This document shows positions 37,861 to 64,000 of a stretch of DNA of 64,000 nucleotides, one piece after another (the stretch's first letter is position 1; the number at the start of each line of letters is the position of its first letter). The position numbers and the translations under genes were made by a program. The notes under the pieces are model-generated. The model searched no databases. It had not been told where the DNA came from and worked only from the letters and a program-made list of their open reading frames with translations. This DNA comes from Stegostoma tigrinum (lineage: Eukaryota). The stretch is from the NCBI RefSeq assembly GCF_030684315.1, contig NC_081397.1, forward strand, positions 11,990,421 to 12,054,420. The letters run 5' to 3'.

Positions 37861-38275
37861 AATCCTGCCTAGAATTATTTCCAGCTCACCACAATTATAA
37901 AATAAATGCAGAGCAGATTCAGTTCTTTATGTCATCTGTCCTGACCCACTAACCAGGAGATTAAATCGATATTCAAGTTAGGAATGGACAGCACAAAATG
38001 TCAAACCCCTGCGATCATGGATCAGATCATGTTACAGCAGAAGAAATTGGCCCACTCAGAGTTATGTGAGAGACAGTTATTCCGATGGCTTCTCAAGGCA
38101 AATTCATGTTTGGAGTTGATGTCTGGCTGAGTGAATGGGAACAAAGCTTAGCCATTTCTCAGCTGCAGAAACTTGACGCTCCTCTGTCCTCTCTTCCTTC
38201 TCCCCCTTATTTTCTGGAAGGAACAATTACTATCCATCAATTTGTGAGGCATTGAAGGGATTCTTCTGTGCTGTC

Positions 38276-38407
38276 TCACAATGTCCGTGGAAGATTGACA
38301 GAAACATTTCCCTCTTCACCTTGACCTGGTTCCTCATCCCCTCGCATATCTGTGTGCCTCAGGGTGGTGTATGTGATGCAGGATGGTTGCTGGTCTGCTT
38401 GCTCAGC
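38276..38407 (-). CDS. ITIM-bearing terminal exon, paralog B (AEQADQQPSCITYTTLRHTDMRGDEEPGQGEEGNVSVNLPRTL*)
   Basis: Acceptor gtcctattttcAG, phase 0; SCITYxTL and GNVxxNxP shared with 55064-55183. Confidence 0.75.
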   Translation of the reverse strand, partial: AEQADQQPSCITYTTLRHTDMRGDEEPGQGEEGNVSVNLPRTL

Positions 38408-38479
38408 CTGAAAATAGGACAATACAGAAACATAGTAAATGAGGAGCAGGAGCAAAATCGGTGGCCTCATGGACAGTGA

Positions 38480-40140
38480 AGGTGGTTATCTCAGAGTACA
38501 ACGGGAACTTGATCAACTGGGCCAATGGGCCGAGGACTGGCAGGTAGAGTTTAATTTAGACAAATATAGAGATGTTGCATCTTTGCTGAGGCAAACCAGG
38601 GCAGGTTAATGGTAGGGCCCTGCGGAGTGTTGTCAAACAGAGGTATTGAGGGGTGCAGGCACATAGTTCCATAAAGTTCCATAGTTCCATAAAGTTCCAT
38701 AAAGCGGACGGCAAGTTTGGAACAGTTGCCTTCATCAGTTCCAACACTGAATGTAGGAGTTGGGATGTTATGATGTGGCTGTACAAGACATTTTGCCCCT
38801 AAGAACTCCATGCAACTAATTGAACAACATTCACTGCTCTGGTCCCGACTACATTCTGTGACAGAGAATCCCATTGGCTCCCCACCCTCTAGGTGAAGAC
38901 ATTTCTCCCCACCCTCAGCCCTTCCCCATCTCCTTTAGACTGTGACCCCCTGAGTGTGGACTCACGTGCCCTCAGCCCCCACTCCAGCCATCAGCAACAT
39001 CTGTGTTTACCCCTATTAAGTCCCATTGAAGTTTCACAGGTTTCTATGAGATCGACCCTCAATCTTCTAAACTCCAGTGAATATAATCCTCACCAATCTA
39101 GTCTTTGCTTGTCCATCAGACCTGCCATCCCAGGATTCAGTTTGGGAAACTTCAGCTGCACTCCCTCCATAGCCAGTACATCCTTCCACAGAGACGGAGA
39201 CCCCAGACTGCAGACGCAATACAGCAGAAGTGGTCTCTCCCTGTACAATTGCAGCAAGACAGCCTTGCTCCTGGACTGGAACCTTCTCACTATGAAGGCC
39301 AACATCCCATTTCCCTTCTTCACCATCTGCTGCTCCTGTAATGCTCACTGTCAGTGACTGGTGTATGAGGTACATCCAGGTCTTGGAGCACCCCGACATC
39401 CCAATCCGGCGGATAAAAACCCAGTTTCCTGGTTTTGCACCCAAAGCAGATCATGTCACTCTGATCTACATTAAACTGTTTCAATCATCTCAGTGTTGAG
39501 TCTACAAACTGGACATTCGGAGGGGGTGGGTGGTGAACGTGGGGATATGGAGGGAGTGGATGGTGAGAATAACAAACTTTATCTGGAAGACACTGAGAGT
39601 GTATGGCATGAGCTGTGAACATCTGGGGTTGTTACACAGACCAGTTCCTCTTAGAAAAGCACACAGTTGGAACAAAGTTGAAACGGATTATGACGAATGT
39701 TATTTCTCTGTACTCTGAACAGGATGTGGCAAGTGGATGCCAATCTCAAAATATCCTTCAATGGATCAACGTGCTCGGCCTGAAGGCAATGAGGAGTTTG
39801 CAAAGGGTTCGGAGTCACGTGCGGAGCAGATCAGGTGAGAATGGCAGATTTTGCTCCCATAAGAACCATCAGAGACAAAAATGGGAGTAGGCCATTCGGC
39901 CCCTCGATCCTGCTCCACTATTCAATAGGACTGTGGCTGATCCAACATTCCTCATGTCCACTTTCCTGCCCTTCCCTTTGATTCCCCAATTGATCAAGAA
40001 TCTGTCAATCTCAGCCTTAAATCTGCCTTCCCCCTGCTGCCACAAATACACACAGCTCCCTGTAGCATGGAGTTCCAAAGTCTCTTATCTCTCTGAGAGA
40101 AGAAATAACTTCTCATGTCAGTCTTCACTAGTGAACCAGA
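38480..40140. mobile_element. Nested CR1 fragments, both strands
   Basis: VKKGNGMLAFI...VLLQLY; YFFSQRDKRLWNS. Confidence 0.8.
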
Positions 40141-40399
40141 TTGTTCTTTGCTTCTTACCATGGTCATCATTAGAGTCTTAACTCCAGATCTGTTTTGTTC
40201 AAAGTAGAAGTCAAAATCCACCGCATGCCACAGCAAGATTTAAATTCAAGTCCTCACAGTATATCCCAGCCATCTGACAGAATAGGATATTGCCTCCCCA
40301 TTATTTCAGAAATTGCAAATGAATCATATCAAAGTGCGGTGTTCAGGTCAGTATAATTTGCCCCACACCATTGAGCCAAACATCGACAGCAGTGGAATC

Positions 40400-40667
40400 C
40401 CTCCATTGGAGAAGTAGGCCATTCAGCCCATTGAGTGCATAGCAACCCTCTGAACAGCATCCCACACAGACCCACTCCTCGAACCCGTTCACTTCCCATG
40501 GTTAATCTCCCTAATCTACCCACCCCTGGACACTCTGAGCAATTTAGCATGACCAATCCACCGAACCTGCACACCTTTAGACAATGGGAGAAGACTGGAG
40601 CACCCGGTGGAAACCACACACACAATATGAGGCAGCAGTGCTAACCACTGAGCCACCGTGCTGCCCA
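40400..40667 (-). mobile_element. tRNA-derived SINE with LINE-like tail
   Basis: A-box GGTGGCTCAGTGGTTAGCAC on minus; another copy at about 46230-46410. Confidence 0.8.
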
Positions 40668-40829
40668 GTGTTTTTGCCGTGTAGGGCTTGCTTAGCTCAG
40701 TTGAGTGTCTGGTCGTGCTGAAAGCGTGTGGTTCAGTTTTTGCACTGGTTGAGTTTGCTGGGAATGATCGTCGCCCTTTGCCTTAGTTGTGGTGACCCTC
40801 AGGTTAAACAGTAAAACACTTGTTGCTGT

Positions 40830-41437
40830 TGTGTCCCTCTCTCCGTCCCTCTCTCTGTCCCTCTCTCTGTCCCTCTCTCTGTCCCTCTCTCTGTCCCTCT
40901 TTCTCTGTCCCTCTTTCTCTGTCCCTCTTTCTCTGTCCCTCTTTCTCTGTCCCTCTCTCTCTGTCCCTCTTTCTCTGTCCCTCTTTCTCTGTCCCTCTCT
41001 CTGTCCCTCTCTCTCTGTCCCTCTCTCTCTGTCCCTCTCTCTCTGTCCCTCTCTCTCTGTCCCTCTTTCTCTGTCCCTCTCTCTGTCCCTCTTTCTCTGT
41101 CCCTCTCTCTCTGTCCCTCTTTCTCTGTCCCTCTTTCTCTGTCCCTCTTTCTCTGTCCCTCTTTCTCTGTCCCTCTTTCTCTGTCCCTCTCTCTGTCCCT
41201 CTCTCTCTGTCCCTCTCTCTCTGTCCCTCTCTCTCTGTCCCTCTCTCTCTGTCCCTCTCTCTCTGTCCCTCTTTCTCTGTCCCTCTCTCTGTCCCTCTCT
41301 CTCTGTCCCTCTCTCTCTGTCCCTCTTTCTCTGTCCCTCTTTCTCTGTCCCTCTTTCTCTGTCCCTCTCTCTGTCCCTCTCTCTGTCCCTCTTTCTCTGT
41401 CCCTCTCTCTCTCCCTCTCCCTGTCTCTCTCTCTCTG
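40830..41437. repeat. 10-12 bp pyrimidine-rich tandem repeat (CTCTCTGTCC / CTCTTTCTCTGTCC)n
   Basis: Direct; lies in the intron between the two paralog-B exons. Confidence 0.97.
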
Positions 41438-41535
41438 CAAGGAGACAACGGTGACTCTACATGAACCACCTGCTAAAAACATAACTTTGCTGATTAAAAA
41501 TTAACTGCCAGCTTTTTCACTACAAAATAACTTAC

Positions 41536-41567
41536 ATGTTTCCCGCCTGATGCAACATCACAGTGAG
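41536..41567 (-). CDS. 32-nt penultimate exon, paralog B (xHCDVASGGKH), phase 1 to 0
   Basis: cttttcttttatttacAG|...|GTAAGT; same phases as the 35-nt exon at 57150; in frame with 38407. Confidence 0.7.
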
Positions 41568-41599
41568 CTGTAAATAAAAGAAAAGACACTTTATTGACA

Positions 41600-44500
41600 G
41601 AATGTATCTAAATGCACGGGGAGAGGGTGTAGAGGCAGCTTCACCAGGATGTTGCTTTCGACACTGGAGAGTGCCAGTGATGGAGAGAGATTGGACAGAC
41701 TGGGGTTCTTATCGTCAGAGCAGAGGAGATTGAGATGCTGGACACGATTGGGATGTATCAAATGATGAGGGACCATAGATTGGGTGAGCAGGAAGAAACG
41801 TTTCCTCCTTGATGGAGGGACCAATGAGGTACAACGTTTTCACCCAGAGGCTGGTGGGGAACCTGGAAATCGCTACCTGCGAAGGTGGGAGAGGGAGAAA
41901 CCCTCATCACATTGAAGATGGATTTTGATGTGCACCTGGGATGCCAAGGCAATGGGCTGAGTGCTGGGGAAATGGAATTAGAGAATGGTGAGGTGGTGTT
42001 TTTAACTGGCACAGGCTCGATGGGCCTTTTACTGGCGCTGGAGACCTCTCCGACACTGTGACTAGCTCACTTTGGGATGTGTGTTCTACATCCAGTATAC
42101 TACTTAGATGTAACGCGATTTTGTCCATGTCAGTTTCTGAGGGAAGGGGGTTGTCTTATGAGGAGAGATTGAGCAGTTTCGGCCAATAATCTCTGGAGTT
42201 TAGAAGCATAAGAGAAGATCTAACTGAGGGATATAAGATGGAAAGGAGAAGGAAAGAGAATGATTGCTCATGTGGGACTATCTAGCACAAGAGTTCAACA
42301 TTTCAGGAGAAGGTGGTGGTACAGATTGAAAACAGAGATAAAGAGGAATGGCTTCTCTCCAAGGGAGAGAGGGATGTGAATCTGGGGAATTTGCTGTGCT
42401 GTGTGTACTGCTGTTCCTGAGTGTGTGGGGAATGTTGGGACACTGAATAAGTTGGAGGAGGAGACAGACAGATTTGTAATCTATGATGGGGAATGGGAGT
42501 AGGGGCAGGAAACTGGATCTGAGGCCAAGATAGGATCAGCTGTGCCGTATCAAATGGGGCCACAGGCACCCAAGAGGCTGAATGGTCTCCTCCTGCTCCT
42601 AGCCCTGAAGTTGTATTGGTCAATCAGTTGCCTGAGCGCATTTTAGTGTGGGTGGTACAGACAGTAGCAACAGAAAGCTCTTATTCTGAGGTGCTAAAGT
42701 GTGTAATCCATTACAGGTCACTCAGTAAGAGTCAATGTAAGACCCATATGATAACAGCAAAATTAGGCTGTTTGGCCCATCGAGTCCGCTCTGCCATATG
42801 ATTGTGGCCGAGAACCCCATTCTCCTGCCTTCTCCCCCTCGGCCTTGATCTCTTTACCAATTAAGAACCTATCTATCACTGTCTTAAAGACATTCAATGA
42901 GTTCCGCAGATTCGCCACCCTCTGGCTGAAGAAGTTCCTGCTCATCTCAGTTCGAAAAGATCATCCCTTCATGCTAAGGCTGTGCCCATCATGTCATGGT
43001 CTCTATCCAGGCCTCTCAGTATTCTGTAAGTTTGAATCGGATTCTCCCTCATCCTTCTAAGCTCCACTGAGCACAGACACACAGTCCTCCCCACTCCTCA
43101 TTAGACAAGCCCTTCATTCCTGGGATCTTGTAAATCTCCTGTGGACCCCCATCCAAGGCCAGCACATCCTTCCTGAAATACAGGGCCCAAAGCTGCTCAC
43201 AATATTCCAAATACGATCTGACCAGAGCCTTATACAGCTTCAGCAGTACATCTGTTCTTGTATTCTAGCCCTCTTGAAATGAACTGCCGAATGAACTTGC
43301 ATGTTAACCTGAAGAGAATCCTGAAGTAAGGCTTTAGATTTCCGAAGACTTCCCCCTTTGAAAAATGGTCGATGCCTCTATTCCCACCAAAGTGCATAGC
43401 CTCACACTTTTCCCCATTGTATTCCATATGCTATATCTTTGCCCTCTCTCCGAGCCTGTTCAATTCCTTCGGCAGCCTCTCTGCTTCCTCACCATTACCT
43501 GTCCCTCCACCAAACTTCCGGTCACCACAGAAACAGGAAATGACAATGCTCCTCGTATGAACAATGCTGGACCCAGAGCGAATATCTCCTTGCCCCAGAG
43601 ACCCAGGCCAGAAGGGACCACACTCAGACATGAAGCAGTTGTAATGCGGTAACAAACAGATTGATGTTCCAGTGCCCAAACTTTCGGTGTCTCCTTGAAA
43701 CAAAATGAACAATATAGCAGTTAGCTCTCAGTGTACATTTCCCTCTTCCAATTCAATTCAATGACTGCTGCTTGGAATTCCCGTGTGTGTCTATGTTTGG
43801 CTTGGACTACTATGGTTACCGTGTCCCAATTAAACTGATGGCCTTCACTGTCAGTGTACCAATATTAAGAAGAGTTTATTGTGCCATTTTGCTGCTAGCA
43901 GATGTTCATGTGTCCTGATGGCTAGTTTCCTTCCTGTCTGTCTAAGATAATGGTTTCAGCAGTTGTTGCTTGGTATTTTGTCGACCACATTGGTTTTGCA
44001 TGTTGTGAGAATGCGGTCTTTCATCCTTTTGAGTGTTTATCATAAAGTGGCTGTGGGCTTGTGTGCTCCCCTGATTCCTAGTGGTCTTAGGAGACTTCTT
44101 GTCTGTTCTGATATGTTCTTGATGTAGGGAATGTGGTCAGTGTGTTAGGGCGTACTATGTCCTCCTGTTGTCCGAAATAAATGTTGACTCCCGGGGCAAC
44201 TCCATCCTGACTGTATACCACTGTGCCACCACCTCTGCAGGGTCTGTCCTGCTGGTGGGACATGACATCTCCAGGGATGGTGATGGTGGTGTCTGGGACA
44301 TTGTCTGTAAGGTATGATTCTGAGTATAATGCTGACTCTCCGGATTTTGACACGAGCCCCCACATGTTAGGAAGCAGGACGTGGCAGGGCTGACAGGGCT
44401 GTTTCAGGTCTGTTGTCTTTTCCGGTGCCTAGGTCGATGCTGGGTGATCCATCCCATTTCATTTCATTATTCAGAACTTGTCGCGATGAATACGACTGAA

Positions 44501-44600
44501 TGGCTTGCTCTTTCATTTCAAAGGGTCAACCCTGATTACAGGTCACTGGACTTGAAACATTAACTTTGTTTCTCTCTCTCCACAGATGCTGCCAGACCTG
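41600..44600. mobile_element. Patchwork of old CR1, Penelope (about 43760-44180) and other LINE fragments
   Basis: RNFFSQRVANL; MEYNGEKCEAMHFG; endonuclease-like RQDR..RGGGTVVY. Confidence 0.7.
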
Positions 44601-45332
44601 CTGAGTTTCACCAGAACTTTGTGTTTCTCACCTGCAACATTAAGTTTGTTCCTCTTTCTCTCCCTCTCCATAATCCGGCTAAGATTTTGAAATTTGCCAT
44701 TCTTGCTGTCTTCTCCTGATTGATGCAAGATGAAAAGCTTCAAACAGAATCTGTTCATTTTCCAGGTGCAGTCCTGCCAAGTGAATCTCGTCAAAGATTT
44801 CCAACTTCCCAAAGCATCGACTTAATGACCTAATCTTCTGGTGGCGGGGTGGGGTGGGAGGTTGACATTGGGGGTAGGTTTTATGGGGGTGAGCTGTCAA
44901 CTTCAGAGAGATACATGATCGCTATAACGGTTTGTACAAAGTACAGCTTTCTGTCGATATTTACTGTTTAAAAAGCAATTGATGCATCAATTACAGATCA
45001 TGGTCAATTCACCACAGTCTTACCAGATCATTAGAGCTGCTCTCCCGTTGGAGAGAGCGGATTGGATGGTGATGTAACCTGAGGGTCACTGCGCCTCAGG
45101 TGATGGAGGGATTCAAAAGGAGAGTCCTTCACGGTAACCCCATCCGGTGTATGAATTGAACCCACGCTGTTACCAATCTAATGCAAAGCAGCCATCGAGG
45201 AAAGCCCCCCCTCCCCCCAACCACATCCACTTCTGAGACAGGAAAAGTCGCTGATCTGGAAAGTGGTTGTAATTACAAAACAAATAGCCTTGCCCCTCTC
45301 CCCACCCCAACATCATTGGAGATAAAGAGCTT

Positions 45333-45966
45333 TGTAATGATACTGTAGCTTTAAGAGATTATTTTGTCCTGGTTTCTTTTGAGAGAGAGATTGAATGAGA
45401 GGTGTCGAGCTCGCTGGTGAAGACTGCTTGACTAAACAGCTTGAGTTTTATTTTGTCCAGGCTGAATGAGTGTGGCCAGCTCTCAGATCAGGATTTCTCG
45501 GTTTTGTTTCATTTCACGTGCACCTGAAGCTGTTGGGGTCTCAAATGCCTTTGAAGCTTCAGTGGATGTCTCCCGGCTCCTGCTGCCTCTGTATTTTCTG
45601 TTGACTCTTTATCCTCTTGGATTGGAGTTCTGCACGTGAGAATCTGTGTCTCAATTTTACATGTTTGTCAAGGAGTGTGTTTATGGGATGTTATTATTTT
45701 GAATCAGTTAATTAGCAATAGTTACTGTATCTACTGCTCTGTTACATTTCCAACAGAGTTAAGTTATTCTTAATTCTTCCTTCTTTTGTTGCATTTTAAC
45801 TGTCGTGTTTAAATCCATTGTTTTGTTTAACATTAAGTTGTTTGCCCAATTGCATTGCATCTGAAACAAGCACTTCACGTTCGCTTTTAAAAATAAAGTT
45901 AGGGTAGAGACTACCTTCTGAAAATATTTTGAGGGCGTCTGCCCTGGTCTAGTCTTGTCCATAACA
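45333..45966 (+). mobile_element. Possible solo LTR
   Basis: TGTAATG...CATAACA termini, about 630 bp, internal AATAAA; no clear target-site duplication. Confidence 0.4.
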
Positions 45967-47677
45967 GACTGAATAATTCCAAAGATTTATCTTGGGAAGA
46001 CAGACTGAGCAGTTTTGGCCGATACTCTCTGGACTTCAGAAGAATCAGAGGAGATCTAACTGAGGGATCCAAAATGCTGAAGTTGGGGGATTGAAAAAGG
46101 AGATGAAGAGAGGATGTTTCCTCATGTGGGAAAATCTAGAATGAGATGTCATCAAGTGAAGATAAGGGGTTGGGGCAGATTGAAAATGGACATGAGGAGG
46201 AATGGCTTTTCTCGAAGGTTGGGGAGAAGGGGCATGTCTAACCTGCACATCCATTGGAGCATACCAGGAAACAGGAGCACCTGGAGGAAACCCACACCAA
46301 CACAGGAAAAATGTGCAAACTTCACACGGACAGTCACCTGAGGCTAAAATCAAAGCTGGATCCCTCACACTGTGCAGCAGCTGCGCTAACCACTGAGCCA
46401 CTATGTCACCCATTGAGCCTGTTCCACCTTTCAGTCTGTTCCTTCACACCATTAACTTGCCTTTAGCCCCCATCCCCTTATTACCTCAGCCAAACAAAAA
46501 TCTGTCAGATTGGAAACTAACCACTGATCCAGCCACTGCTGTGTTTGTGGAAAAGAGATTTCAACCTCGATAACGCTTTGTATGTCATCATTTAATGGAA
46601 CGCTTTCAGCCTAACTGTTGCGACGTACCATGGCCATCCAAATACGAAGCAGTTCTTCCTTTTTTTTAAACAGAATTTGCCTTACACCTGTGAATGCTCT
46701 CAGTTTCGATTATAAACTCTGGAAAATGCCCCCCACCCCCAACTCCCCCGATCATGTGTCATTTGCTTATGGAGAGAAATCTACTGGTTGAATTCCTGTA
46801 GCCACAGGTTTTGGGGCAGGCTTTTTGTTTGCCAAAGAGGTACATCATGCTTTTTGCCCCAAGTTTGTACATTTGCTTTAGAAGTCCCGTAGCCAGTGGC
46901 AGGCAGCAGGGACTAACGTCCAACTGGAAAGCTGAGCCCAGAATATCAGGATGGAGCTGGGTAATACTTTGCGACAGAGAATAGAGGAGAAAGTGGGAGA
47001 AAGAAACAGAGTGGTGATAAGGGAGGGTCCTGGGAATGAAGCTTCATAGAATTGAGATGCCTGGTCAATTTGTTCATTTCGAAAGCTTGTGACATCTCAC
47101 AAAAAAGTAATAGAGTCACAGAGTACAGAAACAGGCCCTTTGGCATAACTTGTCCATGTCAACTGGGCTTCCCATAATAAACTAGTCTCATTGACCTGCA
47201 AATCCATTTTGTTCCCTGTCCAATTTAATAATATCTTTCCTTTTCCTAAGGTACCAGAATTATACACAGTAATCTAAAAGTGGCCAGACCAATGTCCTGT
47301 ACAATGGCAACATGACGTCCCAAATCCTATTATCAATGGTCTGACTGATGGATGCAAAAATGAAATCTGGATGGTGGCATGTGATCAGGAATGTAACTTT
47401 AATACAACAGAGTCTCACAGCACTGGAGAGTCTTTTTGATCCATCCAGACTATACCGACTAACAATAAAGGATGTTCCCAGTCACGATGGGGCAGTCCAG
47501 AACCAGGGGGTGACGGTCTAAATGGGAAGCGTAGGACTGAGTTGAGGAAAAATGTCTTCACCCAGAAAGTGGGGAGCATGTGGGATTCTCTGCCACAGCA
47601 AGTGATTGGGCCCAAAACATTGAATGTGACTCCATCTCTCAGTCCTGTAATCATCTCTCTATATCTGTCTCTCCCTG

Positions 47678-47711
<34 letters not shown>

Positions 47712-50700
47712 CTGTCATCATCCTTTTCTCTCCCTTCATCCTGCACTCATCTGACTTTCTCTCCCTCACCCGACCCTCACTTCCAGAAATTTTAATTGCA
47801 GGCTCAAGCGCGCGAATCAGTTTGAATTATTTTAGCACCTCCTAACAGCCCGGTCCTGGCATCTCAGTCGTATGTGAATAATCTGGGAGATAAATGCACA
47901 CAATGTTTCATTTATATATACATATGTAACACCCACTGACAGAAAGTAAACATGGAAAACACCTTCACATGCATCGCACGGGTCCACATGTAAAGTCAAC
48001 CTCTTTCTGTCTGGGAGGGGAAACACTTTGGGAATTCAATCAATTTCACCTCTGACATTCCTGAAAAAGAAAATAAATAGGAGCAGAGAATGACGCCACT
48101 CGGTCCATCTCCCAGTGGTGTAATTTGTAATCTGTGACCATCCATCTCCCTGAGAGCATTACAAACTAGTTTCTCCCCACCTCACAATTTTCTCCCTTTA
48201 ACTGCAGCAAGTAAAAGGAACACATTAAACAGTTATACAGCAGAAACAGATCCTTCAGCCCAACCTGTCCATGCCAGCCAGGTTTTCTAATCTATCCTAC
48301 TCCCATTTGCCTGCATTTGACCCATGTCCCTCTAAACCTTTCCTATGCATGTCCCTGTTTAAATGCCTATTAAATGTGTAATCGTATCTACATCTACAAC
48401 ATCCTCTCCCAACTCATCCCATACACACACCACTCTCTGTGTGAAACAGTTGTCCATTAGGTCCCTTTTAGATCTCTCACCTTAAACCTACGCCGTTTAG
48501 TTTTGGACTCCCCCGCCCTGGGGAAACGACCTTGGCTATTCACCTTATCTCTGGCTTTCATGATTTTGTTGGCCTCTGTAAGATCACCCAGCAACCTCCA
48601 CTCTCGGGGGAAAAAAGTCCCAGCCTAATTAGCCCCTCCCTACAACTGAAACCCTCCATTCCCAGTAACATCCTTGTCAATCTTTCCAGTTTAATAATAT
48701 CCTGTCCACTGCATTTAATGCATTTCTGTTTTGGTCATTTAAGGATTTCTCATGATCAATCTTGCCAATGGATCCACCAAAGAGAATGAATTGCCTCCAG
48801 TTATCCCTTCCCTTTCGCTCCCATCAATAAGCTGGATAAACACGACCGACTTGTGCACAGCCTTTCCAAATCGTACATGATCTCGAGAGACCGACTCCCC
48901 ACCCCTGGGAGACAATCTAAAGGGAGAGATTAGGGTCCAGCTTCTGCAGATCAGTCTGCAGCTCTAAACCTTCTGGCACGGGGTCGGGGGGGAGGGGGGG
49001 GGGAGCTCCAGTGGCTTCTGTGGATGAACTTGTGCTAGAGAGAACAGAAAATGATACTTACCACCCAGAGACAAGTCGAATGGACTGCCTGCAACCGGAA
49101 CACACAAGAAAAGGAACGAAACCTCATCTGTTGGTCCTTATCTGATAGAAACACTTGTCAGAAAGGCATGAGAACGGATGCAGAGTCGACAAACTCAAAA
49201 TCCTATCTCAATCTCTCTCTCTCTCTGCCCCACGCCCTCCCCTCCCTGACAGATGCTGTCAGACCGGTTGAGTTGCCCCAGTGCTCTCTATGTTGGTTTC
49301 AGATCTCCAGAACCCTGCACTGTGTTGCTTTTGCAACCTTACAAGCTGTGTTCCTTGCTTCAGACACCAGTGCCCCCACTCCTGGTGAAATGGTGTCCTC
49401 TGTTGTTCAAGCATAGAGGAAAGATATGGCTAACACATTTCAAAATAACATTGCATCACTGTCAGAAAGGATACACAGGACAATGAGACGACATTGCTTG
49501 GGAATGGTGTACATATGACCAGAGGATCAGAAGTAGGCCATTCAGCCCATCTGGCTGCTCCACCTTTCAACCATGACTGTGGCTGAACTGCTCATTCTTA
49601 ACTCTACTTTGCTGCCCATCCACCCCTTGCCCCATAACCTTTGCTTCTCCTTCCTGATTGAAAATCTCTCTCAAACTTGAATATACTGAATGACCCGGCA
49701 ATGACAGCCCTCTGTGGTAAAGAACTTCACAGATTCACTCCCGTCAGAAGAAGAAATTCCTCATCTCCATCTTCAATGGACGAACGCCTATGACATGATG
49801 CCCCTCTGGACCCAAATTCTCCCACACGAGGGGCAATGGCTCCCGGTCAAATTCCTCAAAGGATCTTCAATGAGGCCTCCTCTCATTCCTATAAACTCCA
49901 ATGAGGATAGGCCCAACAGACTCAATCTCTCCCTCATCAGACACTCCCTCCATACTCGGGATCAGCCGAGTGAACCTTCTTTGAACCTGCCTCCAATGCT
50001 AGACTCTCCTTCCTTAGATACGAGGCCACAAAACTGCTCACCGTATCCCAGCTCTGTCTTGTATGGTTTTCTTTAGAAAAATTTCCCAACATTTATCTCA
50101 CATTGAAGGCTAACCTTTCGGGCCTCGACCCGATGTTTCGTCTAAATCCTTCTTCTGAAGAAGGATCTCGGCCCGGAACGTCAGCTTTCCTGCTCTTCTG
50201 ATGCTGCTGGGTCTGCTGTGTTTATCCAGCTCTACACCTTGTTATCTTAGATTCTCCAGCATCTGCAGTTCTACTATCTCTGAAACAATTTTAACCTGGA
50301 TTGCAAGAAATAGTTTTCATCTGAAATCCTCAAGCAGTTGAGAATCTCTGTCCCTTTGTGATTTACAGCTGGTTTTGAGGGCGTTGCTAACATACCACAA
50401 CATCAGACAGAGTTACAGCGTGCCATGGTGTGATTGGAGATCCCCAGTGGGCAGATTTTATGCCATTCCCACTCAGTGGGCGATATGTACTCGCTGAGGA
50501 ACAAGCTATGGTAGTTCTATCCCTCTGTAAAATCAGCAATTACCACAAATCTGCCTTATTTATTTCCTCTTTCTGTCCCTCCTCTGTCCCACCCTGTAAT
50601 CAATTCTCCTTCTCTGTTTACATTTAAAACAAATGCATTCCCCTTTGAATCGACTTTTTTTGAAAAAATGCTAATCTGTTTCCGACTCTCTTGCAATTTA

Positions 50701-51310
50701 TTGCACGTGGCTGTTACTTTAGCCCTCTGTTTGCTGTATTTGGGCAGTTTAATTGTTGACTTCATGGCAGATCGGTCCTTTTTACAGCAGAACTCCCAGG
50801 TTTCCCCTTGTTTCCTGTGGCTATCGGCCTGAAGAAGGCTAATATCAGAAATGTTGACTGCTCCTTTCCTCCACATGCTGCCTGGCTTGTCCTTCCAGCC
50901 TCCCGTTTGTCTGTCTCGACTGTATCTTCAGCTAAAGGGGAGGGCATGGCTCAGTGAATGTCTACGTGTGTGTGTGTGTGTCACAGAGAGCGAGAGAGAG
51001 GGCGTGTTTCATTGAAAGGAAGAGTTTGGAGGTTTAAAGGGGATGTGAGGTAAAAGGTTTTTACCCAGAGAGTGCTGGGGAATCTGGTACTCACTGCCTG
51101 TGAGGGTGGGAGAGGCATAAACCCTCATCACATTGAAGAAGGATTTAGATGTGCACTTGTGATTCAAAGGCTATGGGCCAACTGCTGGGAAAATGGGATT
51201 AGGGAATAGGGATAGATAGGAGGAACTGCAGATGCTGGAGAATCTGAGATAACAAAGTGTCGAGCTGGATGAACACAGCAGCCAACCAGCATCAGACGAG
51301 CAGGAAGACT

Positions 51311-51338
51311 GATGTTTCGGGCCTAGACCCTTCTTCAG
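51311..51338 (-). ncRNA. Hammerhead motif variant in a Penelope terminal repeat
   Basis: CTGAAGA-AGGGTCTAGGCCC-GAAACATC. Confidence 0.55.
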
Positions 51339-51509
51339 CAATGCTTAAGAATCTTGCTGCATTGACCCCCATCACCAAACCCCAACCTGTCCATTCTTCT
51401 CAGGGTTTTCGAAATTGCATTGAGATCATCTCTTGATCTCCCAGATCCGGATGATACAGAGTGCCCAAACTCCCTTCCCAGCTCACTGCCTCATTGTGAA
51501 AAATGTGCG

Positions 51510-52350
51510 CAATCACACACTCTCTCTCTCACAGACTCACACACACACACGCTCATGCATGTAGATTCACACACATAGTCAGACTCTCACACACACTCAC
51601 ACCAGCCTTCCCCTCACTCTATGCTCCACATCCTGTTTCCGCTCAGTCTCACCCCAACTCCATCCTCCTTGACTAACCCCCACCCCCACAATTCAGTCCC
51701 TTTTCTCGCTATTCTCCCTCTCACGCACCGCACACGCACAAAGACACGCACACACTGACATGGTCACATATTCACACACAGTCTGACAGACACATACACA
51801 CTGGAACAATTTCACACACACGTCCTTCACAGGTGCGTGTGCACACACACGGTCTGACACACAGTCACACCAGTTTGCATTCACACAAACACATGTTTGC
51901 TCAAACAAATTCATTCACAAAATTACATTGAATATCACACACCCACACACACTCAGAACTGTCATAATCTCTCTCACATTCCCTTACACATTCACATGCA
52001 ATCACAGTTTATGCTCAGACTCTTGTACAAACTCACATTATCTCACACATAATTTCAAACAAACTCACACTCACCCACATACAGCCTCTTAAACTCACAG
52101 AAAAACACATTCACAACACACTCTTGCTCTCTCTCGCACACACACACTCTCACACACTGTCACACACATTCACGCACAGCCACACAAAACATCCTACGCG
52201 CACATTTAATCTCACAAAACATCTCAGACGGTCGTTGACATAAACTTTCCTCAAACATTTTCTCTCACACATACTCCTTCCCTTACCCTCTACCCCTCCC
52301 TATCACGATATCTCACCCTCCATCCCGCACCCCCCCACCTCCCTCCCACC
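51510..52350. repeat. Degenerate CA-rich low-complexity tract
   Basis: Direct. Confidence 0.85.
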
Positions 52351-52749
52351 CACACATGAGCGACGGATGGAAGGGGCGATGCTGGTGACCCAGGGGAGAC
52401 TGTGGCTGACGTGTTGGCTCACTGCACCTTGCATCACCTTCCCGTCCCTGAGAGTAATCCCCAAGTTCGGTCTCTGATACCCGCCTCACATTGGATCACC
52501 GGGGGTTCCACCAACGCACCTTGATTTTAAAAAAGAAATCCACCAATTTGTTGTGTGTTACAATTTTATTCATCTCCAAAGGCAGCATTGTTGTGTACAA
52601 AAGCAAATATCATCAAGAAATTACATTTACAATAACACAGCGACAGATTAAACCCATCCCAATGTACACCATCCATGAACAATACTTTCCATTGCTTCAT
52701 AAACACTGGGACCATTGTGTTTTCATTTAGTTTTCCATCTCAACACAGG

Positions 52750-53540
52750 GTTCGGAGGGAGGGGGAGCTGTGAAGGAGGATGCAGAGATGCTTCCATGCC
52801 ATTGGGTCAAATTGAGTGAGTGGGCAAATGCACGGCTGATGCAGTTTGATGTGGATTGATGTGAGGCTACCACTTTGGGAGAAATAAGAAAACAGGAATG
52901 CAGATTATTATCGAAATGGTGATGGATCGGGAAAGCAGCATGGAGGACAGGAGTTGGAACATCATGTTGTGGCTGTACAAGGCATTGATAAGGATATTCT
53001 TGTTGCATTGTGTACAGTTCTGGTCATGTTGCTACAGGAAGGATGTTATTCAATTGGAAAGGGTGAAAAAAATGAACATAACCATGTTGTCAGGAATGGA
53101 GAGTTTGGGCTATAAGGATAGGCTGTTTTTTTTTTCCAGAGCATCGGAGGCTGAGGGGTGACCCTTTGAAGGTTTTAAAAATCATGAGGGACATAGATAA
53201 GGTGAAAGCCAAGGTCTTTAACCCCAGGGTTGGAGAGTCCAAAAGTGGAGGGCATAGGTTTAAGGTGAGAAGGGAAAGGTTTAGAAGGGGCCTGAGGGGC
53301 AAATCTTTCGCACAGACAGTGGTGGGTATATGGAATGAGCTGTCAGGGGAAGTGGCGGAGGTGGGTAAAATTATAAATATTTGAAAGAAATTTTGGCAGA
53401 TACATGGATAGGAAAGGTTGGAAGGGATATGGTTCAAACACAGGTAAACAGGGCTGGGTCAGTTTAGGAAACCAGGTTGGCATGGACGAGTTAGGCCGAA
53501 GAGTCACAGAGCACAGAAATAGCCCCGATGACTCTATGAT
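52750..53540 (+). mobile_element. CR1 LINE 3' fragment
   Basis: LYKALIR...CVQFWS; FAQTVVGIWNEL. Confidence 0.88.
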
Positions 53541-53929
53541 GAGGGGCACAAATGCTGTCTTTACCAGCAATGCCCCACATCCTTCGCCTGAACGAGGGGT
53601 CATCGTGATTAAAAAACAGCAATAAGCCAGTCACCATCCTTACTGGCTCGAATGTGAACAATTCATCAGCACAGTCCTGCTGTTCCATTCAAAGGTACCT
53701 GGTACCTATTGACCAGACCCTTTGGCCCTCGCGCTGGTGTTGTCCCTGTTGGTGTTCACCAGTTTGCAATCGGACTTGCGCTGCTCCTTTCTTGGTGGCC
53801 AGCAATTGTCAGATCCAGACGGCGTCGATGTTAAAATCTTAACGTCTTCTACCAAGCCTGTACTTACATCAACCCAAACCCTTTTGTGGTGCAGCGAGAG
53901 TGTCTGTATGTCGGGACTAAAAAGCCGAC

Positions 53930-54270
53930 ATTTTTTAATTCATGGGATGAGGGCATTGCTGGCCAGGCCAACATTTGTTGCCCATCCTTAGCTGTCCAGG
54001 GGGCTGTTAAAAATCAACCACTTTGCTGTGGGTCTGGAGTCACATGAAGGCCAGGCCAGGTAAGGATAGCAGTTTCCTTCCCTAAACCACGTGAGTGAAC
54101 CAGATGGGGTTTCCCAACAATTGATTCACAGTCACCATCAGACTCTCAATTACAGGATTTTGATGAATTTAAATTCCACAATCTGTGTTGCAGGATTTGA
54201 ACCCGGGTCCCCAGAACATCACTGGAACATCTGGATTAACAGTTCCGCAATAATCCCATGAGGCCATCGC
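53930..54270 (-). mobile_element. tRNA-derived SINE (second family; also about 60310-60610)
   Basis: B-box GGGTTCAAATCC on minus; shared body. Confidence 0.7.
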
Positions 54271-55063
54271 TTCCCCATTCAAAGGTCAAGCCTGCCACTC
54301 TGGAGGTGTGTGATCCCCCATCCTGACAATGTGGCGTTTCCAAAATACCTGCAGCGGAGAGAAACCCCCTACGTTCCCATTCCCACAATGGGTTTTGGAA
54401 TCTCAGAAAGCCGAGTTGAAGTGTCCAGCAGGGGTTTTGGTTCTTTGGGAGATCTAGTCTTTTCCGTATAGACTCTGTTTCATCCATGCCTTTTCTATCC
54501 AGTTTGTTCAGTGGCTTGCAGCTCAGTGTGTGTTCCTTCTGTGGGGCCAGAAGTTGCTCCTTCCAACCCCACACCCCAGGTCTCTTTCGCCCTGGAATGT
54601 AACCATTGAAATTGGCTGGTTTCTCCTTTTATATATCTCCCAACTGTCAGATCCTTCTGGCAATTCCTGTTCAAAGTTGGTCAGAATAGGGGAGATTCCT
54701 GTTCCATGCGCACAAGGTGGCAGATGATGTCTTCCTCCCCTTAAACATGGACCAACTGAAAAGCTCAATCCTCAGACATGTACATGAGAGGGAAGGAGAG
54801 GCAGGTATTAAATTTCCAAAGACCACAGCTGCTGAAATAGTTTTGAATTTACAAAACTAACGGCCTGCAATGTCCAGAACAGACCAACAGATGCAACAAC
54901 ATGAAATTAGCTTCACAATGAGTGGAGCAGAACAACGTGTGAAAGATGGTTTCCATCGCAAAGTTCACAAGTTTGCGATCTGTACACAGGAGTTACATTG
55001 TACCTCTTCACCAGACAGTCTATAAAAATCGAATGACCCGCCTCTCATCTGTCTTCTTCTTTC

Positions 55064-55183
55064 TTACTTGTGTGGAATATTCTCGTAAACATTTCCATCC
55101 GCTCTGTCTTCTTCCTCTGAGAGCTCGCTGAGGTTCAGTGTGGCGTATGTGATACAGGAATCATTGGGGTCAGGCTTGGCATC
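55064..55183 (-). CDS. Immunoreceptor tail, terminal exon (DAKPDPNDSCITYATLNLSELSEEEDRADGNVYENIPHK*)
   Basis: Pyrimidine-rich acceptor ...ttgcAG, phase 0; ITIM ITYATL and VYENI; TAA at 55064-55066. Confidence 0.85.
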   Translation of the reverse strand, partial: DAKPDPNDSCITYATLNLSELSEEEDRADGNVYENIPHK

Positions 55184-56249
55184 CTGCAATTGGAATGATA
55201 TTGGAATGGAATTGGAATTGAGTGGGAGCAGGAAGGTGAAGAGGTGAGAGAGGCCATTTGTAGTTAAAGGTAGGAGTGGATATCAGTGGGAAACAGGAAT
55301 CACCAACAGGAAGTTCAGTGCCACAAGTTAGGAATCTGGGTAGTGCAGTGGTAATTTCCCTACCTCTGAGCCAGGAGGCTGGGGGTCAAGTCCCACCTGT
55401 GCCTGAGGTGTGCCATACAGATGATAAAAGTGGGAAGGTGATGTCAGAGCTGTACAGGACTTTGGTGAGGCTGCAGCTGGAGCACTGTGTGCAGTTCCAG
55501 TCTCCGCACTATAGTAAGGATGTAATTGCACTGGAGGGGGTGCAGAGGGATATTCACCAAGATATTGCCTGGGTCAGAACATTTCACCAGTGAAGTGAGG
55601 CTGGACAGGCTCAGGTCGATGCTTGGAGCAGAAAAGGCTGAAAGGGCTTTTGATTTGTTTCCATTCACTCAGGGACATTGGCATTGCTGGCTGGGCCCAG
55701 CATTTGTTGCCCTGTCCCTAGCTGCCCTCTTGAGAAGGTGGTATTGAGCCGCCTTCTTGAGCTGCTCCAGCCCCATTTCCTGTAGGTTGACTCACAATGC
55801 GCTTCAGGAGGGAACTCCAGGATTTTCACCCAGTGACACTGAAAGAACAGCCAATGTATTTCCAAGTTGGGATGGTGAGCGGCTTGGAGGGGAACACACA
55901 AGGGGTGGTGTAGCCATGTATCCGCTGCCCGTGTCCTTCTGGATGGATGTGGCTGTGGGTTAGGAAGGTGCCGTCTGGGGATCTTTGGGAAATTTCTGTT
56001 GTGTATCTTGTAGATGGTACATACTGTAGCTACCAATTGGGTGTGAATGACAATGAACTGGCAACTATTTAATGTCACGGTCAGTGATGTTTTAATTCTG
56101 TACAGGAGTAACTGGAACACCAACACCAGTAATGCCACAAGTTTGAAACTCACTTATCCCCAGGCACTGGAAGTGGAATGTGAAACAGTGAGTGACCTAC
56201 TCCATTGATAAAGCATTGCTGGATATTTCCCACTGTGTTTAAAGGCAGG

Positions 56250-57020
56250 CACAAAGCTGGGGGTGAGGGGAGCTGTGAAGGAGGCTACAGGATGCTTCAG
56301 TGTGATTTGGACAATTCAGTAAGTGGCAGCTAATGTAGATCAGCATGAGGTTAACCAACTGAGAGCAAAAACAGGAAGGTGGTGATTATCCAAACAGTGA
56401 TGGAATGGGAGTGGGGGAGGTGCAATGAGACCTGCGTGTCCCCCGTACATCAATCGCTGAAAGTGAGTATCGCAGGGGCAGCGGGTGGTGAAGGAGGCAA
56501 ATGAGATGCCGGCCTTCAAGCGAGAGGGTTCGAGCCCAGGAGCCGGGATATCTTGCTGCAATTGTACAGGGTGAGACCAAACCCTGGAGTATTGTGTGTG
56601 CAGTTTGGGGTCTCCTTATCTGAGAAAGGATGTTCTGGCTATGGAGGGAGTGCAGTGAAGGTTTCACAGACTGATTCCTGGGATGGCAGGATGGACACAT
56701 GAAGAGAGACTGGATTGGCTAGGATTATATTCACTGCAGTTTAGGCGAATAAGGGAAGAATCTCATAGAAATCTGTAAAATTCTAACAGGACTAAATACG
56801 GTAAATACTGGAAGGATGTTCCTAGTGACTGGGAGGAAGTCAAGAACCAGGGGTCACAATATAAAGGAGATAGGTAAGGACTGAGATGAGGCGAAATGTC
56901 TTCACCAAGAGAGTGGGATCCTTGTGGGATTCTCTGCGACAGAACGCAGTCAGGACCAGAAAATTGAATGGGGAGAGCAGGCTGGAATGGCTGAATGGCC
57001 GACTCCAGCTCCTAATTTGT
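56250..57020 (+). mobile_element. CR1 LINE 3' fragment
   Basis: Decayed CR1 ORF2 C-terminus. Confidence 0.8.
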
Positions 57021-57149
57021 AAGGTATTTCCTGTGATCAGTCTGATATGAACCAATAGTTAATGTTTTACTGCGCGGATGTAAGTTATAAATTACCTGCA
57101 CTTCCTGTGGCAATAGCTGTGGTCTATTTAGGCTTAAAATGTAACATAC

Positions 57150-57184
57150 CTCCTTCCCATTCGAGGAGAAACCAACACTGCTGC
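57150..57184 (-). CDS. Immunoreceptor tail, 35-nt exon (GSSVGFSSNGKE), phase 1 to 0
   Basis: ctgttttattttcAG|...GAG|GTATGT; phases fit both neighbouring exons. Confidence 0.8.
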
Positions 57185-58397
57185 CTGAAAATAAAACAGA
57201 CTAAGTTGAGAAGGAACTCTTTGGAGACATTGACGATTCAATTTGGACGAATTGAAGGCTGATCAACATTAAAGATGTAACTGAATCTTTCAAAAGCATG
57301 GCTGTGTTTTTATATTGGTGCAATGCTTAATAAATTGTCCTCCTCAATCAGCCCAGAAACTTCAGAAGATTGCATTTAGAAACCTCGCTCTGGCTAAAGC
57401 CTACAATTTGCATTCAGGTCAATCACACAGCGGGTCAGTTTTTTAGGATGCAGGTCATTGCAACATCTTCAGCAGGCCGCCTTAATCTTATCAGCCTTTG
57501 CATGACTCGCCCTGTTGTTATACATGAAAACGACAAGAGTGAACCATACAGATAACGTCCATTTGGGTTTTAGAGTCACACAGCATGCAAACAGACCCTT
57601 TGGTCCATCGAGTCCATGCCAAGCATAATCCCAAATTAAAATGGTTCCATCTGCCTGCATCTGGCCCATATCCCTCCAAACCATTTCAATTAATGTACTT
57701 AAAGTGTCCACTGTCAACTTTAATTCCTTTAAAATAAATTCAACAGTTGCTCATAAATGTAGGAATTTAGGAAAGAACACTATTTCAACTCAAGAGTTTA
57801 ATACACTTAGTCTCGTGTCAAACCATCTGAAGAACTAAACTAGACTCACCATATTGTCGACAAACACAGCAAGTCAGGCAGAACTCGGAGAAAAGGAGCA
57901 GTCAACACCTCAGGCACAACCCCCACTTCCAGCCCCGAAGAAGGGCCATACCCGAAACGCTGACCGCTGCCTCCCTCCAGACGTTGCCTGGCTTGCTGTG
58001 TTCTTCCAGCCTCCTGGTTTGTCTATCTTGGATTCCAACATCTGCAGCTTTTTTGTCTCTATACTTATCATATTAGTTGCAATGAGAAACTCTAATTTGT
58101 TCAGTTTTGTTTCATTGAAAGTCACACACCTTAGGAAAGAAACATTGTTTATTGAGAACTTACTGTATTCCAGGATTGCTTTTTATGCAAAAATAGGAAT
58201 TTGAGAATGAATGGACATCCACTCTTGGATGTTATATCTCTGCCAATGTTGTCCCTTTCAGGACAGCTTCAATAACAATGTGAACATGGTCAAAGGTAGA
58301 AGATAGAGGGTGGTTTTAGCTGTTGCATGCTGATAGTTCCAGATAGCTCAGTTGGCTAGATGGCTGGTTTTTGTCATACATTGACAAATGTATGTCA

Positions 58398-59630
58398 ATG
58401 CCTTACAAACCTTATCGAGTTTTTTGAGGATGTGACTAGGAAGGTTGATGAGGGTCGAGCTGTGGATGTGGTGTATATGGACTTCAGTAAGGCATTTGAT
58501 AAGGTTCCCCATGGAAGGCTCATTCAGAAGGTCAGGAGGAATGGGATACAGGGGAACTTAGCTGCTTGGATACAGAATTGGCTGGCCAACAGAAGACAGC
58601 GAGTGGTAGTAGAAGGAAAAGATTCTGCCTGGAAGTCAGTGGTGAGTGGGGTTCCACAGGGCTCTGTCCTTGGGCCTCTACTGTTTGTAATTTTTATTAA
58701 TGACTTGGACGAGGGAATTGAAGGATGGGTCAGCAAGTTTGCAGACGACACAAAGGTCGGAGGTGTCGTTGACAGTGTAGAGGGCTGTTGTAGGCTGCAG
58801 CGGGACATTGACAGGATGCAGAGATGGGCTGAGAGGTGGCAGATGGAGTTCAACCTGGATAAATGCGAGGTGATGCATTTTGGAAGGTCGAATTTGAAAG
58901 CTGAGTACAGGATTAAGGATAGGATTCTTGGCAGCGTGGAGGAACAGAGGGATCTTGGTGTGCAGATACATAGATCCCTTAAAATGGCCACCCAAGTGGA
59001 CAGGGTTGTTAAGAAAGCATATGGTGTTTTGGCTTTCATTAACAGGGGGATTGAGTTTAAGAGTCGTGAGATCTTGTTGCAGCTCTATAAAACTTTGGTT
59101 AGACCGCACTTGGAATACTGCGTCCAGTTCTGGGCGCCCTATTATAGGAAAGATGTGGATGCTTTGGAGAGGGTTCAGAGGAGGTTTACCAGGATGCTGC
59201 CTGGACTGGAGGGCTTATCTTATGAAGAGAGGTTGACTGAGCTCGGTCTCTTTTCATTGGAGAAAAGGAGGAGGAGAGGGGACCTAATTGAGGTATACAA
59301 GATAATGAGAGGCATAGATAGAGTCGATAGCCAGAGACTATTTCCCAGGGCAGAAATGGCTAGCACGAGGGGTCATAGTTTTAAGCTGGTTGGTGGAAAG
59401 TATAGAGGGGATGTCAGAGGCAGGTTCTTTACGCAGAGAGTTGTGAGAGCATGGAATGCGTTGCCAGCAGCAGTTGTGGAAGCAAGGTCATTGGGGTCAT
59501 TTAAGAGACTGCTGGACATGCATATGGTCACAGAAATTTGAGGGTGCATCCATGAGGATCAATGGTCGGCACAACATTGTGGGCTGAAGGGCCTGTTCTG
59601 TGCTGTACTGTTCTATGTTCTATGTTCTAT
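58398..59630 (+). mobile_element. Young 5'-truncated CR1 LINE with open RT C-terminal frame and (TTCTATG)n tail
   Basis: YMDFSKAFDKVPH, GVPQGSVLGP, FADDTK; splits a tRNA-SINE between its A-box (58344-58355) and B-box (about 59657-59669). Confidence 0.97.
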
Positions 59631-61172: not shown

Positions 61173-61232
61173 CAGACTCTGTTCTCTTTTTGGTGGTGAC
61201 CACTGAATAAACTATATCCGCAGCGGCGTTTT
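61173..61232 (-). CDS. Immunoreceptor tail, 60-nt symmetric exon (ENAAADIVYSVVTTKKRTES), phase 1 to 1
   Basis: tttatttctttgtAG|...TG|GTAAAT; ITIM IVYSVV. Confidence 0.85.
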
Positions 61233-62060
61233 CTACAAAGAAATAAAGTGCACATGAAAAACACACATCAATCAGAGAGCAGCGCTATAATGGGCTAAAT
61301 GACACATGCAACATCAATGCACAGATTCATGGATAGATAATAAATTTCAGAGCTGGATGGACAAATTTAATCGACTGATGGACGGATAGACAGATGGATG
61401 TTTTAAGATAGAGATAGATAGCTTCTTGATTAAAAAGGGGGATCAAGGGTGATGGGAGAAGGAAGGGGAATGAGATTGACAAACACATCAGCCTTGGTCA
61501 AGTGGCACAGCTGACCTGATGGAAAGAATGGCCTAATTCTGCTCCTATATGTTAGGTCCTGTAGCCTCATTTAGATAAGAAGACGCATAGATAAATAAAT
61601 ATGCATGCAGTTAATATCCTTGGAGATCATTCAGTTCACTACAACCACTATAAAGACTGCTGTACAGGAAGCTTGCTTCCCTTCATTATCACTTGCATGG
61701 AGCACTTGTGTCTCTGAGGAGCCAAGCCTTTGTACACAATCACTCATTGTAACCAACATCAGTTGGATTTCTCAATACCAGAGTACTGCGCCCTCAGTTT
61801 CCGACATTACTTCCGATCAAATAAGCATGTTGTGTCAGGCAAAACACCCTGAAGGAGGTCCAGTCACAAGGTATTAACAGCAACAGCCGTCTGTAAAAGA
61901 CACTGGTTAAAGATAGGGGCTTATAGCTCAGCAGTAGACCCATCAGCGCATCAGGTCTGTGCTGTTCAAAAGCAACCACCTCCCTATTCTCTAATCACAT
62001 TTTCCCAGCACCTGCCTCCATATCCTTGGCATCACAAGTGCACATCTCAATCTTTCTTCA

Positions 62061-63917: not shown

Positions 63918-64000
63918 CAGCATTGTGTGCTGCTCCGATTACTGCATACTCCAGGTTGCTGGCTGCTGCCACTTCACCAGAAGCTTGGGATCTATTTCCA
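63918..64000 (-). CDS. Immunoreceptor tail exon, 5' end probably beyond the window (GNRSQASGEVAAASNLEYAVIGAAHNA), ends phase 1
   Basis: Donor CTG|GTGAGT; ITIM LEYAVI; in frame with 61232. Confidence 0.8.

What the first reader, a model, noticed from the sequence alone, without database searches (positions are those of the whole stretch)
38276..41567. Second copy of the receptor's last two exons: alternative tail or orphan paralog
Seen: a 32-nt phase 1-0 exon and a 132-nt terminal exon mirror the 35-nt and 120-nt pair about 16 kb upstream (SCITYTTL vs SCITYATL; GNVSVNLP vs GNVYENIP). Both have strong splice sites and open frames. I found no Ig or TM exon between 41.6 and 55 kb. Inference: the 60-nt exon could splice in frame to either pair, giving two tails that both keep the distal ITIM but differ in the terminal YEN tyrosine. 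Otherwise this is the remnant of a deleted tandem paralog.
Basis: partly seen in the sequence, partly recalled or inferred. Interest (0 to 1): 0.75.

Follow-up and report, generated by a model that had tools for sequence, protein, structure and literature searches.

The report
Leftover tail of gutted shark receptor
These two exons are the tail end of a second shark immune-receptor gene whose middle was deleted and which was then copied about 27 times in a gene array; they are likely a decaying leftover, not an alternative tail of the neighbouring gene.

Summary
The two exons are real, but they belong to a different gene. Two intact copies of that gene ('type II' Fc-receptor-like, FCRL) lie on the same contig, each about 11 kb behind a 'type I' gene like the window's. 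The window keeps type II's two signal-peptide exons (47974-47941, 46658-46629) and its last two exons; about 17.5 kb between them (five Ig domains, TM, four tail exons) is deleted. The gutted unit was amplified to 27 copies. It decays: the 32-nt exon's GT donor survives in 12 of 26 copies, 2 of 27 terminal exons have nonsense codons, 20 of 27 lack the last tyrosine. All 12 database proteins ending in this pair are type II; 0 of 37 type I-family proteins use it. Against a pure relic: about 400 bp around the terminal exon are unusually uniform across copies; site patterns favour gene conversion, though a tree test did not. No junction read could be tested. The scan noted the type I array before on other DNA (e1-9367851).

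The parts
38276..38407 (-). Terminal exon (C') of the internally deleted type II FCRL gene; keeps the ITIM-like motif, lacks the last tyrosine of the intact gene
   Evidence: 125 of 132 nt identical to the intact gene's last exon
41536..41567 (-). Penultimate 32-nt exon (B') of the type II gene, phase 1-0; GT donor intact in this copy
   Evidence: 31 of 32 nt identical to the intact gene
43754..44167 (.). Deletion junction: about 410 bp without match in the intact locus, between the two blocks that align to intact-locus positions 12481947 and 12499488 (about 17.5 kb missing)
   Evidence: shared by the distant copy at C56 5.5 Mb (4.8% substitutions) and 3 of 3 array copies compared
46629..46658 (-). 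Second signal-peptide exon (30 nt) of the type II gene; pyrimidine tract of its acceptor replaced by an A-run
   Evidence: 7 of 30 nt differ from the intact gene
47941..48060 (-). First coding exon of the type II gene (ATG at 47974, 34 coding nt); acceptor intact, donor weakened
   Evidence: 5 of 34 coding nt differ from the intact gene
55064..55183 (-). Terminal exon (C) of the upstream type I FCRL gene (ITIM-like motif and terminal YEN tyrosine)
57150..57184 (-). 35-nt tail exon (B) of the type I gene, phase 1-0
61173..61232 (-). 60-nt tail exon (A) of the type I gene with an ITIM-like motif, phase 1-1
63918..63991 (-). 74-nt tail exon of the type I gene with the first ITIM-like motif; TM and Ig exons lie beyond the window's end
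38200..38600 (.). Tract of low divergence around C' (array copies 1-3.5% apart, 2-4.5% from the intact gene); likely gene-conversion tract

Best explanation
The two exons are the last two exons of a separate FCRL-like gene (type II) that lost its Ig, transmembrane and first four tail exons in one internal deletion and is likely a non-functional relic carried along when the array was amplified. Shown: in two intact loci a type I gene is followed head-to-tail by a complete type II gene; the window is collinear with that pair except for a gap of about 17.5 kb inside type II; 26 of 27 array copies hold the first signal exon and the 32-nt exon, and none holds type II's first Ig exon or the exon that precedes the 32-nt exon. 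Inferred: the deletion happened once, before the array expanded; type I transcripts normally end in their own terminal exon and polyA site about 11 kb before the 32-nt exon; the relic still looks clean because it is short, sharks mutate slowly, and gene conversion with intact copies has refreshed the terminal exon.
For: Intact genes: full exon map at C56:12477933-12504457 and 12716876-12743402; type II Ig1 has only these 2 matches inside the 9-15.2 Mb array, of 14 genome-wide. Collinearity and breakpoints. Proteins: 12 of 12 holding the pair start with the type II signal peptide and hold type II's own preceding exon; 0 of 37 type I-family proteins hold either exon. Decay: donor of the 32-nt exon GT 12, GC 10, CT 4 of 26 (my count); start codon lost in 3 of 26, acceptor tract of signal exon 2 replaced by an A-run in 25 of 25; terminal exon among 27 copies: 4 missense, 2 nonsense, 1 silent change, 6 of 7 non-silent against 0.73 expected if neutral, P=0.89; frameshift and dead donor in the distant copy. 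Control: type I terminal exon in 21 copies has 0 stops and both tyrosines in 21 of 21 (8 missense, 5 silent as scripted). 3 of 24 type I copies lack the tail and 6 of 27 tails have no type I terminal exon in the 18.6-18.8 kb fetched upstream. In relatives' contigs all depth over the terminal codon reads Tyr, as in the intact gene (3 of 4 runs cover it).
Against: The terminal exon has 6 segregating sites in 132 nt against about 20 expected; 0 of 116 background tiles are that low. Its acceptor AG is intact wherever read (22 array and intact copies plus the distant one) and 25 of 27 frames are open. The conversion reading rests on a window chosen after looking (3:5 against 205:15 site patterns, Fisher p=1.5e-4) and the tree test did not reject the intron topology (p-AU 0.378). 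The counts of coding changes are small, so weak selection is not excluded, and the type I control is not clearly different in missense rate. The database proteins are annotation models whose RNA support I could not see, and 3 of 18 members of the main type I cluster were not listed.
Confidence: 0.85

Rival explanations
1. Co-opted alternative tail: after the deletion, read-through type I transcripts skip their own last exons and splice to the orphan (60-nt exon to 32-nt exon, or 35-nt exon straight to the 132-nt exon), giving a receptor that keeps the ITIMs but, in most copies, lacks the terminal tyrosine.
For: Both splices are in frame by exon phase. 21 of 24 type I copies have the terminal exon 15.7-18.7 kb behind them. 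The terminal exon is the least variable stretch measured and keeps its acceptor; the 35-nt to 132-nt route would not need the lost donors.
Against: No protein model shows it (0 of 37). Amino-acid changes are not depleted. The low diversity covers 100 nt of upstream intron (6 sites) and 150 nt of 3' flank (11 sites) as much as the exon, and part of that intron is a dispersed repeat. Type I has an AATAAA at 52570, at the end of a block conserved with the intact locus, and intact acceptors of its own last exons and of type II exon 1 lie in the way.
Confidence: 0.1
2. Mini-gene: the gutted gene still fires from its own promoter and splices signal exon(s) to the last two exons in frame, making a short RNA or a 65-75 residue peptide that is a bare receptor tail.
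For: All four kept exons are phase-compatible. The start codon survives in 23 of 26 copies; the region upstream of exon 1 is 81% identical to the intact locus. A Xenopus FcR-like cDNA without TM but with a tail is on record (PMC2413239, passages) and 2 of 12 type II models skip the TM.
Against: Only 9 of 26 copies keep both the start codon and the GT donor; signal exon 2 has lost its acceptor tract in all; the signal exons differ from the intact gene at 12 of 64 nt, the background rate; the only protein search with the exon covered 77-2000 residues and could not have found such a peptide.
Confidence: 0.04
3. Assembly artefact: the deleted unit is a mis-join repeated by the assembler.
For: The region is a large near-identical array, which is hard to assemble.
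Against: Copies that share the junction differ by 2.7-7.8% across it and form supported clades; the window has no N.
Confidence: 0.01

Closest known systems
Intact type II genes on the same contig (NCBI models XP_059498322-27 and XP_059497893-98, named 'Fc receptor-like protein 2/4/6')
   Same: Same signal exons, same last two exons, same position behind a type I gene.
   Different: They have five Ig exons, TM and four more tail exons, and keep the terminal tyrosine; the window copy has none of these.
Mammalian FCRL1-6 and Xenopus XFL receptors of the TM2 (inhibitory) class
   Same: Best solved-structure matches of both shark proteins are FCRL5 (E 6.7e-51 and 1.8e-62), then FCRL4 and Fc-gamma-RI; two signal exons, uncharged TM, tail on several small exons with YxxL/V/I motifs, large tandem family (PMC2413239, passages).
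   Different: Signal exons are 34/30 nt, not the 30/21 rule that the paper gives for FCRL1-6; type II has six tail exons against one to five in XFL; no ligand, synteny or tree evidence here. Two papers state that sharks lack FCRL (PMC4016189, PMC13337447; passages).
Gene fragments and converted pseudogenes in paired-receptor clusters (SIGLEC11/16, SIGLEC22P/CD33, CEACAM, KIR)
   Same: Birth-and-death array with partial genes and sequence exchange between functional and dead copies (search listing and abstract starts only; KIR fragments recalled).
   Different: Here the exchanged tract is the cytoplasmic last exon, not the ligand-binding domain, and the fragment is part of the amplified unit itself.

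Membership tests
Remnant of a type II paralog | An intact paralog exists that uses these exons as its own tail | tested here: met
Remnant of a type II paralog | Flanks collinear with the intact gene on both sides of a deletion | tested here: met
Remnant of a type II paralog | Inactivating changes accumulate among copies; no depletion of amino-acid changes | tested here: met
   small counts
Remnant of a type II paralog | Nucleotide divergence of the exon at background level | tested here: not met
   terminal exon and its flanks are a trough; likely conversion, tree test inconclusive
Alternative terminal exons of the type I gene | Frame-compatible splice sites | tested here: met
   but donor non-GT in 14 of 26 copies
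Alternative terminal exons of the type I gene | Transcript or protein joining type I exons to the pair | tested here: inconclusive
   0 of 37 protein models; contigs laid could not show the junction
Alternative terminal exons of the type I gene | Origin by duplication within one gene | tested here: not met
   the pair descends from a different gene
FCRL / FcR-like receptors (intact type II gene) | Ig domains closest to FCRL/FcR among solved structures | tested here: met
   Pfam Ig_2
FCRL / FcR-like receptors (intact type II gene) | Signal peptide on two exons | tested here: met
FCRL / FcR-like receptors (intact type II gene) | 30/21-nt signal exon rule of mammalian FCRL1-6 (met by only a fraction of XFL genes) | tested here: not met
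   34/30 nt against PMC2413239 passage
FCRL / FcR-like receptors (intact type II gene) | Uncharged TM and Tyr motifs on separate tail exons | tested here: met
FCRL / FcR-like receptors (intact type II gene) | D1-D5 domain subtypes by phylogeny; synteny with the FCRL locus | not tested
   outside this finding
FCRL / FcR-like receptors (intact type II gene) | Immunoglobulin binding, phosphatase recruitment | not testable with these tools
   needs experiment

The most novel reading that the evidence does not exclude
A deletion turned the tail of one inhibitory receptor gene into an optional last exon of its neighbour; the exon has since been kept uniform across 27 copies by gene conversion under selection, so that each array gene can swap its YEN-ending tail for one with or without the last tyrosine.
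Probability: 0.1. Interest if true: 0.6.

Novelty: new member of a known kind. Interest (0 to 1): 0.25.

Why it matters
As a relic it is ordinary: a gene fragment in a birth-and-death immune cluster. It is useful in two ways. It records the history of the array (an ancestral type I/type II pair, one deletion, then about 27 duplications), and it leads to a second, intact lineage of FCRL-like inhibitory receptors in a shark, a group that two papers say lacks them (PMC4016189, PMC13337447; passages). If the alternative-tail reading were true it would be a clear case of a signalling tail captured from a dead neighbour.

Tried and rejected
RNA test of the junctions: no RNA holder listed for the stretch searched (17 of 21 rows are guessed RNA with small shares). 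Laying 4 runs on 41460-61400 was swamped by repeats and showed no exon joint among the rows printed (2214 joints not shown). Laying 4 runs on the terminal exon: 3 of 4 cover it, two contigs stop exactly at the acceptor (38407), none shows the upstream exon; one 30-letter loose end could not be assigned. Neither call bears on expression of the orphan copy. My first breakpoint estimate (22 kb, signal exons deleted, strict filter) was wrong and corrected. Splice-site scan with a rough weight matrix found only the 32-nt exon at its cut-off and missed the known exons, so it is no test. Tree test for conversion did not reject. The junction DNA recalls a Penelope-type GIY-YIG fragment and its left flank a LINE endonuclease (both recalled); Pfam gave no supporting family for 3 of 3 fragments. 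Literature: three searches listed no paper on this shark cluster; only titles and abstract starts were seen except for the four papers named; supplements were not read. No related shark genome could be searched, so conservation of the deletion in other species is untested. Look-ups of earlier notes by sequence and by place gave nothing.

Full report
Observation. The window is C56:11990421-12054420 of a 3.2-Gb genome. The upstream gene, here type I, continues beyond the window with a TM exon and at least four Ig exons; a whale shark model shows the same tail ending in the 35-nt and 120-nt exons.

The pair is not a one-off. The 120-nt exon has 24 matches at 90-100% identity on C56 between 9.1 and 15.2 Mb. 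The 132-nt exon region has 27 matches at 98-100% in the same span, 2 at 96% and a few more distant ones (40 of 46 candidates scored). In 21 of the 24 the 132-nt exon lies 15.7-18.7 kb behind the 120-nt exon.

Whose exons are they? A protein search with the 132-nt exon (77-2000 residues) returned 2 clusters among 6 candidates, 12 members in all, NCBI models from a contig of this length named Fc receptor-like. All 12 begin with a different signal peptide and reach the pair through their own preceding exon. They map to two complete genes, type II, at C56:12.478-12.504 and 12.717-12.743 Mb: two signal exons, five Ig exons, TM, six tail exons. Each lies about 11 kb behind a type I terminal exon. 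Type II Ig1 has no other match inside the array.

The deletion. The window aligns with the intact locus through type I, the spacer, and type II up to 44167 (intact 12481947, about 1 kb before Ig1), and again from 43754 (intact 12499488, 265 bp after the exon that precedes the 32-nt exon). About 17.5 kb is missing; 410 bp without match there fill the gap. The two signal exons are still there (47974-47941 and 46658-46629). I fetched all 27 array copies and the distant copy at 5.5 Mb: 26 of 27 hold signal exon 1 and the 32-nt exon, 25 hold signal exon 2, one holds only the terminal exon, and none holds Ig1 or the preceding tail exon in the 18.6-25.6 kb read upstream. In two intron trees of 13 rows (9 array copies chosen as representatives, the distant copy, 1 intact gene, 2 C62 copies) the deleted copies form one side of a branch with support 100/100: one deletion, then amplification (inferred).

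Decay. The 32-nt exon's donor is GT in 12, GC in 10 and CT in 4 of 26 copies, AT in the distant copy. The start codon is gone in 3 of 26; the acceptor tract of signal exon 2 is an A-run in 25 of 25. In the terminal exon the 27 copies show 4 missense, 2 nonsense and 1 silent change, and 20 of 27 have Ser in place of the last Tyr; 6 of 7 non-silent fits neutrality (0.73 expected, P=0.89). The type I terminal exon, as control, has no stop and both Tyr in 21 of 21, with 8 missense and 5 silent changes as scripted; the missense shares do not clearly differ, so the test is weak. Three type I copies keep signal exon 1 but have no tail behind them. None of 37 type I-family proteins holds either exon (15 of 18 members of the main cluster were listed).

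What speaks against a plain relic. The terminal exon has 6 segregating sites in 132 nt where the background gives about 20; none of 116 background tiles is that low. But 100 nt upstream and 150 nt downstream are as low, part of the upstream DNA is a dispersed repeat, and in this tract array copies are 2-4.5% from the intact gene against 6-23% in the intron before it, while the C62 copies show no dip. Four-taxon patterns flip from 205:15 in the introns to 3:5 in the tract (Fisher p=1.5e-4, window chosen after looking), and at 3 of those 5 sites relatives' contigs carry the base of the distant and C62 copies, so window and intact gene share the derived base. Some copies also carry intact-like tracts further 3'. 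This favours gene conversion. The tree test did not reject the intron topology (p-AU 0.378), and conversion could itself be favoured by selection, so a small chance of function remains. A low shark mutation rate (7e-10 per base per generation in the epaulette shark; PMC10587355, abstract) helps to explain a clean-looking relic (inference).

RNA. No direct test was possible. In 3 of 4 runs from two related organisms, contigs over the terminal exon all read the Tyr form of the intact gene, which shows only that the exon exists in relatives in its type II form.

Known families. Both shark receptor types match FCRL5, FCRL4 and Fc-gamma-RI best among solved structures and share the split signal peptide, uncharged TM and Tyr motifs on small exons with Xenopus XFL TM2 receptors, but not the 30/21 rule (PMC2413239, passages). 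PMC4016189 and PMC13337447 (passages) state that cartilaginous fish lack FCRL.

Verdict. Observation confirmed; the pair is the 3' end of an internally deleted paralog, likely non-functional (0.85); co-opted alternative tail 0.10; mini-gene 0.04. Interest 0.25.

Noticed in passing
G000:C56:12477933-12504457 and 12716876-12743402 (L025-L028, L032-L035): Two intact type II FCRL-like genes with five Ig domains and four tyrosine motifs plus a terminal tyrosine: a second shark FCRL-like lineage; ten or more further relatives with type II-like Ig exons at C56 0.28-5.7 Mb, many with stops.
   Followed up: partly
window 58398-59630 and 62068-63296: Two LINE fragments, 98% identical over 1233 bp, in inverted orientation on either side of the 60-nt ITIM exon; both are absent from the distant copy at 5.5 Mb. 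They could pair in the pre-mRNA and favour in-frame skipping of that exon (untested).
   Followed up: no
   Followed up: no
type I array models P0014, P0032-P0045: None of the 15 listed models carries the full type I tail; most end by read-through after an Ig exon (predicted secreted forms) although the tail exons are intact in the genome.
   Followed up: no
window 49447-49037: Block 81% identical to the DNA upstream of the intact type II start, holding a possible 27-nt untranslated exon (49088-49062) with AG and GT; likely part of the kept promoter region.
   Followed up: no
L016 / extended coordinates 114-131 kb beyond the window start: Another Ig receptor gene upstream of type I on the same strand (three or more Ig exons, TM, a distant terminal exon with a Tyr motif).
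   Followed up: no
G000:C56 0.9-4.4 Mb (for example 4353803-4353894): Seven or more type II-like loci match only the intron and first 19 nt of the terminal exon, so their last exon diverges or is interrupted after that.
   Followed up: no
window 40840-41440: A purine-rich microsatellite in the intron between the two exons, absent from the intact genes and from 9 of the 20 array copies counted.
   Followed up: no
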